A program made the position numbers. Source: Escherichia coli (GTDB lineage Bacteria > Pseudomonadota > Gammaproteobacteria > Enterobacterales > Enterobacteriaceae). From it: a DNA stretch of 64,000 nucleotides. Of the stretch, positions 48,001-51,000 are shown in pieces. The stretch lies in assembly GCF_051903065.1 (NCBI RefSeq), contig NZ_CP178439.1; one strand, 5' to 3'. The number at the start of each line of letters is the position of its first letter. Position 1 is the first letter of the stretch.

Positions 48001-51000
48001 TTGTTGTATTGGTTGTCATCTTTGTCACCTCCCCTGTTCGTCCATTTAGAGTTTTAAGCTGCTTTACACATCACACTCAACTGATTATTTAAGCTGGTCA
48101 TCGTCTCTGGCCAGCATAGCCCAACCATTCGACTGGTTTTCGCGGGAGTAAGGATTCATTTCAAAATAACTATCTACCGCGTCGCTGTCCGCAACAGAAC
48201 TGTTGTTAGCTCTCTTTGAACCCTGAACCACTACAGCATCAACCTCTGCGGCTTTCCCGTTGCGCTGTACCAGGATTTTAACCGTCTTGGGCTTACGTCT
48301 TGCGAGCAGTTTGTTGGCGATAAAAAGCACAACAATCCAGGCCAAAAGCACGTATAAAAATTTATTCATAATGCCCTCCTTTGTATGTGATTATTATACC
48401 TGCTTCCATTGCAGGCCAAACAGGTTCGGTGTATGAAAAATAGACTTCTCTCCGGCGTATAGCAATCTACTTACTGATCTGTTTTCGTATCAAACTGTAT
48501 GGCATAACCGAGGGGCGTACGTGGTGAGTCAGAAAGTTACTTTTCCGTAATAGTTAATTTCAGATCCTTCTTCCAGTTACGCTTCAGTATAAAACCGATA
48601 CCCTCTAATTCAGCATCCTTCACGTTTAATACGCTTCACTTTAAGGCAGGGCTTTTCGGTTGATATGAATTCTTTTTCCGGTTGCTGGACATGGGTTTCA
48701 TCCTGATAGTTAAAATTGCAGGCTATCAGTCACCACCACCACCTCCTCCTCCTCCTCCTCCACCGCCACCATCACAACCACCAGCTATGCTATTTTCACC
48801 ATTACAATCACCTCCGAGGGGGTTCAAATGGCTGCTCCCCTGTAGATGGTGTCCTTGCCAGATCGAACCCGAACCAGCGCCTCCTGAGCGTCTTTGCTTG
48901 CCCTGAGGCAATTGTGCAGGCTCACCAGCACCGGCGGTCCCAAAAATGTCCCGGGCAATTTTATAAAGAAGGTAAAAAGGTACGCCCAGCATCATAAAAA
49001 AGATTACTGAAAATATTACACGTTCCATTGATGATCTCCTGTCTTGTGAGAGACCAGTTATATCAGGGTGATTCAGTATTTCCGTTTAGAAAAGAGTACT
49101 AATTTGGCCCTGTTCGATCTTAATTTGCCATCCGGGAAAAAGTCATAGGGATAGGCCTGCCAGAGTCAATAACTTCCAGTGATCTGGAGGAGACCCCGGC
49201 TCTCTGAGCCCTCATGGATGGTACGGCTTTACCCCCTGTAAACAGATTCACGTTCCGCAGGACAAACATCGACTACTGACGTCTCATATTTGCTGACGCT
49301 AATCCGACGTCTCATTGCCGTCTGCTTGTTTTCTTTAAAGGGTGTATTAGACGAATATCAAATCGGAATGGTAGGGGATGTGTGGGCACCATGCCCGGCC
49401 CTCTTTGAGCATCTGAGAGATTGGAGACCTAGCCGGGTAAGATAGCTACTTTCTTACGGGTTACCCTTCAAATCCAAAGACGAAACGGACGCTGCCGTTC
49501 TCCACGTGGAGACGCTTTACTTCTTCGACAAATTCCTGGATCACCTCTCCGGCGTTATCGGGTGGTATGGCTGACAAAATTTCTTCCGAAGTCAGCCATG
49601 AGTATGAATGTTCACCGAATAAATCATCATCTTCGGACGGTATATCATCAGGTAATCCGCGTAATGCGTGGATAAAAACTGCTGATGTGCTCGCCCTTTC
49701 ACGATCTACATCAAATCCGAGCCAGGCAAAGTGGAGATATGATCGGTCCCCTTTATAATTGCTTGATAAATTAATCCATTTACCAGGCTTTTCTTCCCTT
49801 TGAAATCGCCAGCAGATATCAACGCCCATTAAGAAACTCCATTACTATCGTTCGTATGAGATAACTATCATTTCAGAATACTATGACTTCTTCCCGTATA
49901 GAACTAATCGCTCACGCCAACTGGGCGAAGCCAACCGGTTCCGCCACTTCGCTCATTGGTTTTTAGGCGTAAGCACTGAAGCCAGTCTCCATGCTAACTG
50001 GCGAGCCTGCGAAAGTCAGACTCGTTGTTATAAAGCGGCATATCGTAAGCGGTGTCTGAAATGAACATACGGATCTGCTCAAGCGTCATGCCACAATGAA
50101 AACGGTTTACGCTCACATTGGCCCGGGGGAAGTCAGCACAAAACGCATTCAAAACATTTTCATGGACAATGCCAATGTTGATCAACGCAGCTGGCCCGTT
50201 GTCACGGAAGGATACGACACGGAATCCCCCATACCAGCCTGAATGGGAGAAAAATGAAAATGCGCCGGATGCCAGACCATTAGACAGGTCATAGCGCAAT
50301 TTCCCGCACAGAGACTGGCTGTCTTTGCTGTACACGCGATTAATGAAAATACCGGGACCAACTTCTACCGGCTGCTTGTTGCTTGCTAAACACGGAAAGC
50401 CCACCAGCGAAACCTCCCTTTCTCCTGACCAGTTTACCTGATACCCGGCAGTGAGAAAGTCCGTCAGTTCTACGCCAGAAAGAGCATTAATGGCCGCGAT
50501 ATCGGTAGTCAAAATATTTACGTTTTTCATATTCATCTCATCTTTATTCTAAAGTGCGTTTTTTGTCTATCAGCCCGAGGATTGAAAATTTGAATATTTA
50601 ATGTGACAGATAAATACCTGTCACTTTTTCAAAAACAGCCTGTAATTGAATATCGAGAGAGTTCATTTTAAAATCCACCAGCTCAGCTTTATTATCGCAA
50701 ACCAAATAAAAATAGGAGTCAAATGCGTCTGTATCTTCATCTTTAAAAATACGGAAGGAATTAATTTTATCATGCCCTTCAAATTCGGCATGAATACCAT
50801 AGCGAACCGAGCCGTCATCGAACTGAACAACCCGTCGTACAGAATTAATCCGGACGTACTGTTTTAAGGCCCTCGCGAAATCGGCATTTAACGCCAACGC
50901 TCGTAAGATTGAATCAGCGGTTTCATTCTGCTTTTTACGATCGTATTCAAATATCCCACAGCCGGTGTTACGAAAGACCGGCTGAAGAGCATTAACCAGG

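What the first reader, a model, noticed from the sequence alone, without database searches (positions are those of the whole stretch)
48726..49028. Small membrane-anchored glycine-rich protein encoded over a triplet repeat tract
The minus-strand ORF gives a TM helix followed by a Gly/Ser/Cys-rich tail ending in 13 consecutive Gly, encoded by a CCN-periodic tract (48728-48790). Triplet tracts change length by slippage without frameshifting, so the tail length may vary between isolates. Gly-rich small peptides recall microcin-like products, but no maturation genes are adjacent.
Basis: seen in the sequence. Interest (0 to 1): 0.4.

Follow-up and report, generated by a model that had tools for sequence, protein, structure and literature searches.

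The report
IncHI plasmid small glycine-tailed membrane protein
A real but dispensable 100-residue gene of IncHI2 resistance plasmids encodes one membrane helix and a floppy glycine-rich tail; its 13-glycine run is a slippage-grown spacer that varies a little between plasmids, and it is not a microcin.

Summary
Window 48726-49028 (-) is a 100-codon ORF with a strong RBS. It has a confident N-terminal TM helix and a disordered Gly/Ser/Cys tail ending in G13-D, encoded by GGT GGC GGT (GGA)6 (GGT)4. The window is IncHI2 plasmid backbone and the gene is annotated 'hypothetical protein' in about 980 complete plasmids. It is protein-coding: differences from a 6%-diverged lineage are mostly at third codon positions (pN/pS 0.29, p=0.004), and only this frame is open. 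Tract length does vary (G13, G12, G11, G9, G3, and Asp-interrupted G6-D-G5/6-D). However, two alleles that track the two main lineages account for about 90% of plasmids, so it is not hypervariable. The microcin idea fails: there is no leader and no maturation or export genes anywhere on a 276-kb reference plasmid. New here: IncHI1 (R27, pHCM1) and pLec-476cz-type plasmids carry, in the same slot, a mostly unannotated 77-87-aa ORF of the same architecture ending in an invariant ...GDAGGGCGGGGD. The conserved feature is therefore a membrane-tethered Gly-Cys-Gly-Asp C-terminus, and the IncHI2 poly-Gly is a lineage-specific expansion. The gene is non-essential (Tn10 and frameshift alleles persist). 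Its function is unknown. Interest is modest.

The parts
48726..49028 (-). CDS of the 100-aa protein including the TGA stop (WP_000442694.1, 'hypothetical protein' in RefSeq IncHI2 records)
   Evidence: Frame-specific substitution pattern against L009: sd 9.5, nd 8.5, pN/pS 0.29, p=0.004, and this is the only open frame.
49036..49040 (-). Shine-Dalgarno AGGAG, 7 nt before the ATG. The context ACAGGAG-N7-ATG recurs in the IncHI1-type counterparts.
48963..49019 (-). Codons 4-22, hydrophobic TM helix VIFSVIFFMMLGVPFYLLY
   Evidence: KD mean 2.24 over 19 aa. AlphaFold helix 2-32 with pLDDT 87-94.
48729..48941 (-). Codons 30-100, a Gly/Ser/Gln-rich tail predicted disordered. It has basic residues near the membrane (K44, R46, R47), Cys75 (48804-48806), Cys85 (48774-48776) and a terminal Asp100.
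   Evidence: pLDDT below about 55 and no secondary structure; composition 28 Gly of 71 residues.
48732..48770 (-). 13 consecutive Gly codons: GGT GGC GGT (GGA)6 (GGT)4. This is the length-variable tract.
   Evidence: alleles.
48744..48761 (-). (GGA)6 core, where unit changes were seen: 5 units in pXH990_1, 4 in pN1566-2, 8 in pSCE516-1.
48881..48884 (-). Equivalent position of the Tn10/IS10 insertion found in other IncHI2 plasmids, after codon 49 (GGA). There is no insertion in this window.
   Evidence: Junction ...CGCTCAGGA|CTGATGAATCCCCTAATGATTTT, followed by a DDE transposase and a Glt symporter gene.

Best explanation
This is a genuine, translated, accessory gene of the IncHI plasmid backbone. 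It encodes a small single-pass inner-membrane protein. An N-terminal helix anchors a roughly 70-residue intrinsically disordered Gly/Ser/Gln-rich tail. By the positive-inside rule the tail most likely lies in the cytoplasm. The part under selection is the architecture plus a short C-terminal Gly-Cys-Gly(n)-Asp-COOH motif. That motif is invariant as GDAGGGCGGGGD in IncHI1-type plasmids and reads AGGCD-G(n)-D in IncHI2. I infer that the protein works as a membrane-tethered flexible arm presenting this terminal motif to a partner or ligand at the inner face of the membrane. In IncHI2 the 4-Gly spacer between Cys and the terminal Asp has been expanded by triplet slippage, mainly of GGA units, to 11-13 Gly. 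Spacer length is nearly neutral and drifts in frame at a low rate. The gene is not required for plasmid survival. Shown here: coding status, membrane helix, disorder, allele series, dispensability, synteny, and C-terminal conservation at the protein level. Inferred: topology, the partner-binding role, and the neutrality of tract length.
For: Coding status: RBS AGGAG-N7-ATG. 12 of 18 differences from lineage L009 fall at codon position 3, with pN/pS 0.29 and p=0.004, and the ORF is the only open frame.
Synteny: IncHI1, pLec-476cz-type and IncHI2 share the order ParB-like gene, small genes, 145-aa gene, 178/181-aa gene, a variable gene (122-aa gene in IncHI2, DUF905 in IncHI1), this ORF, 94/104-aa gene, 117/118-aa gene, then the convergent NERD, S49, DUF4400 and traD genes.
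Counterparts: they are 77-87 aa with an N-terminal helix, a basic cluster (RNKK.../RARNKK...) and a Gly/Cys/Asp tail.
Frame preservation: the 3 indels inside the ORF are 6, 12 and 3 nt, whereas all 9 indels in the flanking spacers are 1-2 nt.
Selection in the IncHI1-type family: pairwise dN/dS is 0.40-0.70, and the last 12 codons carry only synonymous differences, with none nonsynonymous.
Link between the families: a profile-profile alignment joins the two tails end to end (probability 58.6%, E 9.5e-5). The 3' contexts are shared: GGTGGTGAY TGA TA.
Occurrence: 981 plus 273 plasmids carry a copy, against 1242-1255 plasmids that carry the neighbouring genes.
Structure.
Allele series and frequencies.
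Dispensability: Tn10 sits at codon 49 on 460 contigs, and an 80-aa frameshift allele is on 81 contigs.
Topology: 1 K/R before the helix against 5 within 25 residues after it. The IncHI1-type proteins have none before and 5-7 after.
Against: There is no direct evidence of transcription, translation or membrane localisation. No paper in the library mentions the gene. No sigma-70 consensus promoter was found directly upstream.
The ORF is the fastest-evolving segment of its neighbourhood. Between pHCM1 and pLec-476cz it is 71% identical at nucleotide level, against 79% for the flanking spacers, and neighbour genes have dN/dS of 0.13-0.32. Within IncHI2 it is 94% identical against 95-96% for the spacers.
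Null alleles are common.
Homology between the IncHI2 and IncHI1-type proteins is not demonstrable by BLASTP and is only borderline by hhalign on low-complexity sequence.
For the IncHI2 protein alone the net charge balance across the helix is ambiguous.
No partner or ligand is known.
Confidence: 0.55

Rival explanations
1. It is a decaying or functionless ORF. It is translated or not, but it has no selected role, and its persistence reflects hitch-hiking in the backbone.
For: Tn10 disruption is found on 460 contigs, and frameshift alleles are on 81 or more contigs. It is the fastest-evolving segment locally, with dN/dS up to 0.7-0.8 between IncHI1-type lineages. It has no hit in Pfam, NCBIfam or PHROGs, and the IncHI2 protein has no relatives beyond its own gene in the collection-wide sequence searches.
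Against: The ORF has stayed open across three diverged IncHI groups. Its indels are in frame while those in the neighbouring spacers are 1-2 nt. The RBS is conserved. The last 12 codons differ only synonymously. pN/pS is 0.29 within IncHI2.
Confidence: 0.2
2. It is a contingency-type locus. Slippage in the triplet tract generates functionally different tail lengths (or on/off states through out-of-frame slips), and these are selected in different hosts.
For: Several length alleles and some frameshift alleles exist. At least 651 draft contigs end at the tract, which could reflect within-culture heterogeneity.
Against: A triplet unit does not switch the frame. About 90% of complete plasmids carry one of two lineage-fixed alleles. 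The repeat has only 6 pure GGA units. The contig breaks can equally be technical.
Confidence: 0.1
3. It is a microcin B17-like or other RiPP/bacteriocin precursor whose Gly/Cys-rich tail is the core peptide.
For: The resemblance is in composition only: a Gly run plus two Gly-flanked Cys. My recollection is that McbA has a G10 run and Gly-Cys/Gly-Ser motifs.
Against: The N-terminus is a TM helix, not a cleavable leader. No cyclodehydratase, dehydrogenase, C39-ABC exporter or immunity genes are annotated on the whole 276-kb plasmid. There is no Pfam or NCBIfam hit. The only ATP-grasp gene lies in the ter-linked cluster about 130 kb away.
Confidence: 0.03
4. The functional element is nucleic acid rather than protein: a G-rich/polypurine tract (G-quadruplex or H-DNA) affecting replication or transcription, or the antisense poly-Pro ORF at 48682-48906 (+).
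For: The (GGN)17 tract fits a two-tetrad G4 pattern. The tract coincides with assembly breaks. The antisense frame shares wobble positions with the sense frame and so shows a similar pN/pS of 0.34.
Against: The antisense frame has 3 stops across the region. By inspection, its ORF starts at TTG with no Shine-Dalgarno sequence upstream. The tract is only 4 Gly codons long in IncHI1-type homologues, while the protein C-terminus is conserved through synonymous changes. The G4-aware folding output was unreliable.
Confidence: 0.05

Closest known systems
R27/IncHI1 hypothetical protein WP_000925846.1 (77 aa) and its pLec-476cz-type relatives
   Same: It occupies the same genomic slot and has the same RBS context. 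The architecture is the same: an N-terminal TM helix, a basic cluster and a Gly-rich disordered tail with Cys. It ends in G(n)-D-stop followed by TGATA.
   Different: BLASTP detects no similarity and hhalign is only borderline. The IncHI1-type tail has 4 Gly between Cys and the terminal Asp, against 11-13 in IncHI2. The middle regions are unrelated in sequence. None of these proteins is characterised.
Microcin B17 precursor McbA (from my own knowledge)
   Same: It is a small plasmid-encoded peptide with a long Gly run and Gly-flanked Cys residues.
   Different: McbA has a soluble 26-aa leader and needs the adjacent mcbBCDEFG genes. Here the N-terminus is a TM helix and no such genes exist on the plasmid.
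Bitopic membrane proteins with a low-complexity linker, such as ZipA, TonB and TolA (from my own knowledge)
   Same: They have a single N-terminal membrane anchor followed by a long flexible low-complexity segment.
   Different: Those proteins end in a folded interaction domain. This one ends in a 10-12-residue motif only, and it has no sequence relation to them.
SSB-type disordered Gly/Gln/Pro linker with an acidic tip (from my own knowledge)
   Same: It has a Gly/Gln/Ser-rich disordered linker ending in a conserved acidic C-terminus, which could act as a short linear motif.
   Different: It has a membrane anchor instead of an OB fold. The acidic tip is a single Asp preceded by Cys and Gly. 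There is no evidence of partner binding.
Trinucleotide simple-sequence repeats in bacterial coding regions
   Same: Alleles differ in frame by whole repeat units, consistent with slippage.
   Different: The unit number is low (6 pure units) and the observed diversity is low. It is not an on/off switch like the 1-, 2-, 4- or 5-nt contingency repeats.

Membership tests
Microcin B17-type (thiazole/oxazole-modified) precursor | Soluble N-terminal leader peptide recognised by the synthetase | tested here: not met
   Residues 2-32 are a confident hydrophobic helix.
Microcin B17-type (thiazole/oxazole-modified) precursor | Cyclodehydratase/dehydrogenase (McbBCD/YcaO-type) genes in the same cluster | tested here: not met
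   None is annotated near the gene or anywhere on the 275.8-kb plasmid pSTM6-275. Seven of the neighbouring ORFs were scanned against Pfam, with no such domain. This relies on RefSeq/PLSDB annotation, which is incomplete.
Microcin B17-type (thiazole/oxazole-modified) precursor | Gly/Ser/Cys-rich core peptide | tested here: inconclusive
   The tail is Gly-rich with 2 Cys and 6 Ser. This is a resemblance in composition only.
Class II microcin / double-glycine-leader bacteriocin | GG/GA leader cleavage motif plus a C39-peptidase ABC exporter and accessory protein | tested here: not met
   No exporter is annotated on the plasmid. The N-terminus is a TM helix.
Phase-variable contingency locus | A repeat unit whose copy-number change switches expression (unit not a multiple of 3, or a promoter spacer) | tested here: not met
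   The unit is 3 nt inside the CDS. The frameshift alleles arise from other events: +5 nt in pSCE516-1 and -1 nt in a C5 run.
Phase-variable contingency locus | High allele diversity among close relatives | tested here: not met
   471 of 977 plasmids are at least 99% identical over the tract, and about 390 (estimated from evenly spaced rows) share one other allele.
IncHI-wide small TM / Gly-Cys-Asp-tail protein (R27 WP_000925846.1 type) | Conserved genomic slot between the 178/181-aa gene and the 94/104-aa gene | tested here: met
IncHI-wide small TM / Gly-Cys-Asp-tail protein (R27 WP_000925846.1 type) | N-terminal TM helix, basic cluster, and a Gly-rich tail ending Cys-(Gly/Asp)-Gly(n)-Asp-COOH | tested here: met
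IncHI-wide small TM / Gly-Cys-Asp-tail protein (R27 WP_000925846.1 type) | Detectable sequence homology | tested here: inconclusive
   BLASTP found no alignment. hhalign gave probability 58.6% and E 9.5e-5 over 56 columns reaching the C-terminus. The RBS and stop contexts are shared.
Glycine-zipper membrane proteins (Pfam Gly-zipper families) | Match to the family HMM | tested here: not met
   No Pfam hit at E<=0.1.

The most novel reading that the evidence does not exclude
The IncHI2 ORF, the R27-type ORFs and the pLec-476cz-type ORFs form one previously unrecognised, largely unannotated family of IncHI backbone proteins. Their conserved, membrane-tethered Gly-Cys-Gly-Asp C-terminus would be a short linear motif engaging the conjugation or establishment machinery, or binding a metal or ligand, at the inner membrane. 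The slippage-prone Gly spacer would tune its reach, so tail-length alleles would differ in function.
Probability: 0.15. Interest if true: 0.5.

Novelty: new variant of a known kind. Interest (0 to 1): 0.3.

Why it matters
IncHI1 and IncHI2 plasmids are major carriers of multidrug, mcr-1/mcr-9 and heavy-metal resistance, and much of their backbone is 'hypothetical'. This work shows three things about one such ORF. It belongs to a small-protein family present, intact or disrupted, in about 1250 sequenced IncHI plasmids. The family's invariant C-terminal motif marks its likely functional end. The gene is missing or mis-framed in most IncHI1-type annotations. That gives annotators a correction and experimentalists a cheap target for deletion, tagging and tail variants. 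There is also a practical point: the GGN tract is a recurrent break point in short-read assemblies of IncHI2 plasmids. Without a phenotype, the biological significance remains modest.

Tried and rejected
1. Pfam, NCBIfam and PHROGs scans of the protein found nothing. Scans of its neighbours identified only a ParB-like protein at the head of the gene array, plus NERD and S49 on the convergent operon.
2. A word-indexed search of 5.8 billion proteins and an exhaustive phmmer search of 1.84 billion representatives, both with residues 1-86, returned only the same IncHI2 gene, its truncations, or low-complexity matches to long repetitive proteins. The IncHI1-type relatives were found only through synteny.
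3. Rfam gave one sub-threshold hit (Mu-gpT-DE, 24 bits against a gathering score of 49) over the RBS. I treat it as chance.
4. The promoter/terminator scan found no consensus promoter directly upstream and no terminator after the gene. By eye there is a conserved TTGACT-N16-TATGAC at 49169-49142, which fails the tool's -10 rule and is unverified.
5. The 18-codon mini-ORF downstream (48637-48693, -) is rejected: it has a stop at codon 11 in lineage L009.
6. The antisense poly-Pro ORF is rejected (and inspection).
7. I considered that the Gly...Asp end mimics the cyclisation site of the TrhA pilin (PMC12667790). IncHI2 TrhA ends ...STFMD|AGVPL, which is not similar, so I dropped this.
8. The G-quadruplex-aware ViennaRNA fold gave implausible energies and malformed output, so I did not use it.
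9. Literature searches on IncHI2 transcriptomes, protein accessions, leading regions and Tn10 sites gave nothing specific to this gene.
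Full report
OBSERVATION. It starts at ATG 49028-49026, preceded by AGGAG at 49040-49036 with a 7-nt spacer, and ends at TGA 48728-48726. The 100-aa product is MERVIFSVIFFMMLGVPFYLLYKIARDIFGTAGAGEPAQLPQGKQRRSGGAGSGSIWQGHHLQGSSHLNPLGGDCNGENSIAGGCDGGGGGGGGGGGGGD. The 13 Gly codons (48732-48770) read GGT GGC GGT (GGA)6 (GGT)4. Tandem Repeats Finder reports a period-3 array at 48731-48783 with 17.7 copies, the longest triplet array in the window. The best 19-residue hydropathy window (residues 4-22) averages 2.24. AlphaFold predicts a confident helix for residues 2-32 and no structure for 33-100.

WHERE IT IS. The window is IncHI2 plasmid backbone. The 1.9 kb around the ORF matches 988 PLSDB plasmids, 967 of them at 99% identity or more. 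These are mostly conjugative plasmids, from Escherichia, Salmonella, Enterobacter and relatives; the records examined in detail are typed IncHI2A/MOBH/MPF_F. In pSTM6-275 the gene is WP_000442694.1, 'hypothetical protein'. It lies third from the end of a co-directional array that starts with a ParB-like gene and continues with small hypothetical genes (window about 53491 down to 47666). This array converges on the mobI-mobH-traD-orf-DUF4400-S49 peptidase-NERD operon.

IS IT A GENE? I compared the window with a lineage 6% diverged at this ORF (Logan ERR1822337, locus L009). Of 18 differences, 12 are at third codon positions. Synonymous differences number 9.5 and nonsynonymous 8.5, giving pN/pS 0.29 (binomial p=0.004). 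The only other frame with a similar ratio is the antisense frame that shares wobble positions, and it contains 3 stops. By inspection, the antisense poly-Pro ORF starts at TTG with no Shine-Dalgarno sequence. The flanking spacers are as conserved as the ORF (95-96% against 94%), so constraint is weak, but the substitution pattern is that of a translated frame.

RELATIVES BY SEQUENCE. There is no hit in Pfam, NCBIfam or PHROGs. tblastn against PLSDB, a word-indexed search of 5.8 billion proteins, and an exhaustive phmmer search of 1.84 billion representatives were run. They returned only the same IncHI2 gene, its truncations, or matches that look spurious.

RELATIVES BY POSITION (main new result). 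The two downstream neighbours (94 aa and 117 aa) have homologues at 57-78% identity in about 270 further plasmids. These include IncHI1 plasmids (R27, pHCM1, pMAK1) and a third group represented by pLec-476cz. Gene order is the same in all of them. In the equivalent slot there is an ORF that most RefSeq records leave unannotated. In pLec-476cz and AR_0116 a different frame is annotated over its tail. In R27 it is annotated as WP_000925846.1.

These ORFs are 77-87 aa. Examples are:
- IncHI1: MLLNIALILYVAVCLYLCLRNKKALYRSQGGGRQFTQSSKSGANTGESGFFLISGYSDTGVGGDSGDAGGGCGGGGD
- pLec-476cz type: (M)LMILHIVLTLYVVVCLFCCLFLRARNKKALCHSQTEGRRYTQDSKRGGIADGNGSFFTPDTSGGDGGCGGGGDAGGGCGGGGD

The architecture matches the window's protein: a helix at the very N-terminus, a basic cluster, a Gly/Ser-rich segment, and a Gly/Cys/Asp tail ending G(n)-D-stop. 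Every intact IncHI1-type member seen ends in GDAGGG(G)CGGGGD.

Three independent tests show that this family is translated:
- Indels between pHCM1 and pLec-476cz are 6, 12 and 3 nt inside the ORF, but 1-2 nt (nine events) in the flanking spacers.
- Pairwise dN/dS among four lineages is 0.40-0.70.
- The last 12 codons differ only synonymously, with no nonsynonymous difference in any pair.

The RBS context (ACAGGAG or AGGA, then N7-8, then the start codon) and the 3' context (GGTGGTGAY TGA TA) are shared with the IncHI2 gene. BLASTP sees no similarity between the IncHI2 and IncHI1-type proteins. hhalign aligns their tails end to end with probability 58.6% and E 9.5e-5, which is suggestive for low-complexity sequence but not proof. 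I therefore treat common ancestry as likely, on synteny plus architecture plus end contexts, but not demonstrated. Counting both types, 981 + 273 = 1254 plasmids carry a copy (intact or disrupted). That compares with 1242-1255 plasmids carrying the neighbouring genes.

THE TRACT. In IncHI1-type genes only four Gly separate the last Cys from the terminal Asp. IncHI2 has C-D-G6-D-G5-D (R478-like lineage, 99 aa, WP_000442693.1), C-D-G6-D-G6-D (Lelliottia and ERR1822337 lineages) or C-D-G13-D (this window). The long run is thus an IncHI2-specific expansion. Codon-level alleles are:
- (GGA)6(GGT)4 in this window
- (GGA)5(GGT)4 in pXH990_1
- (GGA)4(GGT)5 in pN1566-2
- GGA GGA GGT GAC GGA (GGT)4 in the R478-like lineage

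Other alleles are G9-D (96 aa, 30 contigs), G3-D (90 aa, 2 contigs), G8-A-G3-D (54 contigs), and a 6-nt shorter allele, inferred to be G11. Among 977 complete plasmids matched with a 141-nt tract-centred query, 471 are at least 99% identical to the window. Evenly spaced rows indicate about 390 with the R478-like allele and only a few percent with anything else. The terminal acidic residue is kept in the intact alleles seen.

DISPENSABILITY. Three kinds of null allele were found:
- Tn10 (IS10 end, DDE transposase, Glt-symporter gene) is inserted after codon 49 in a subset of R478-like plasmids. This gives the 64-aa product P0013, seen on 460 contigs.
- A 1-nt deletion in a C5 run gives an 80-aa product seen on 81 contigs, including complete plasmids.
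- pSCE516-1 has a net +5 nt in the tract.

About 4% of PLSDB copies are interrupted. The gene is therefore not needed for maintenance of the plasmid in nature.

MICROCIN HYPOTHESIS. This is rejected. The N-terminus is a membrane helix, not a leader. I read the annotation of the entire 275.8-kb pSTM6-275, which carries the identical allele. It contains no cyclodehydratase, dehydrogenase, C39-ABC exporter, HlyD-type or immunity genes. The only ATP-grasp gene belongs to the ter-linked cluster about 130 kb away.

MECHANISM (inferred). Positive charges cluster after the helix. The IncHI2 protein has 1 K/R before it and 5 within 25 residues after it. The IncHI1-type proteins have none before and 5-7 after. 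This favours an N-out/C-in topology with a cytoplasmic tail. The most conserved element is the extreme C-terminus. The best-supported model is a membrane-tethered disordered arm presenting a Gly-Cys-Gly(n)-Asp-COOH motif to an unknown partner or ligand, with the Gly spacer free to change length. I put about 0.55 on the overall description (real small membrane protein, slippage-expanded near-neutral spacer, accessory role). I put much less, about 0.15, on any specific partner-binding role with length-dependent function. The main rival is a nearly functionless ORF, at about 0.2.

UNEXPLAINED. At least 651 draft contigs from NCBI and Logan end within codons 86-94, at the start of the tract. Five Logan contigs from different runs all stop at GGTGGCGGT(GGA)3(GG). 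With k=31 the tract contains no internal repeat long enough to break a graph. The cause is therefore either coverage or quality dropout on this G-rich polypurine sequence or within-sample length heterogeneity. I favour the technical explanation because complete plasmids show little diversity, but only read-level analysis can decide.

VERDICT. It is a hypothetical gene already annotated in IncHI2. Its membership of an IncHI-wide, mostly unannotated small-protein family with an invariant C-terminal motif appears not to have been noted in the literature I could search. Interest is modest at 0.3.

Noticed in passing
window 48732-48790 (-); loci L013-L017: At least 651 draft-assembly contigs (NCBI and Logan) terminate inside codons 86-94 of this gene. 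Logan contigs from five different runs all end at GGTGGCGGT(GGA)3(GG). The tract is a recurrent assembly break point in IncHI2 plasmids. The cause could be sequencing dropout or in-culture length heterogeneity, and this is unresolved.
   Followed up: partly
window 48881-48884 equivalent; L010-L012 3001-3260: Tn10 (IS10 end CTGATGAATCCCCTAATGATTTT, then a DDE transposase, then a Glt-symporter gene) is inserted after codon 49 of the gene in a subset of R478-like IncHI2 plasmids. The truncated 64-aa product occurs on 460 contigs.
   Followed up: yes
L024 4022-4255; L025 3999-4253; L027; L028 1222-1455: The IncHI1-type counterpart of the gene is unannotated in most RefSeq IncHI1 records. In pLec-476cz and AR_0116 a 46-50-aa ORF in another frame is annotated over its Gly-rich tail. 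R27 has it as WP_000925846.1.
   Followed up: yes
window 49461-49829 (-): The 122-aa hypothetical gene just upstream is an indel. It is absent from the ERR1822337 IncHI2-like lineage (L009), and IncHI1 has a DUF905 gene at that position. It has weak PHROG hits to families of unknown function.
   Followed up: partly
window 12139-12161 (+): This is a second triplet tract, (TCA)n with period 3 or 12, which would encode Ser8 in a stop-free plus-strand frame. The gene it lies in was not examined.
   Followed up: no
window 48760-48776 joined to about 47850-47967 (+ frame): Two E. coli partial proteins (P0041, P0044) fuse ...AGGCDGGG to RRPVHPHHIEQGYLP..., which is the antisense frame of the 117-aa gene. 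This suggests an inversion or misassembly with one end in the tract.
   Followed up: no
window 48370-48725 and 49029-49460: The 356-nt and 432-nt spacers flanking the ORF are as conserved as, or more conserved than, the ORF itself (95-96% within IncHI2; 79% against 71% between IncHI1-type lineages). The downstream spacer contains promoter-like sites for the 94-aa gene (48493-48464, 48419-48390). A conserved TTGACT-N16-TATGAC lies at 49169-49142.
   Followed up: partly
window 49026-49068 (-): There is a weak, sub-threshold Rfam match to Mu-gpT-DE RNA (24.4 bits against a gathering score of 49, E 0.012) spanning the RBS and start codon. It is probably chance.
   Followed up: no
window 52307-53491 (-): The 394-aa gene at the head of the small-gene array is ParB-like (PHROG 1033 at 1.6e-21; TIGR00180 at 5e-7). 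The layout, a ParB-like gene followed by many small ORFan genes next to the relaxase operon, resembles plasmid leading or establishment regions. The direction of transfer in IncHI plasmids was not established here.
   Followed up: partly
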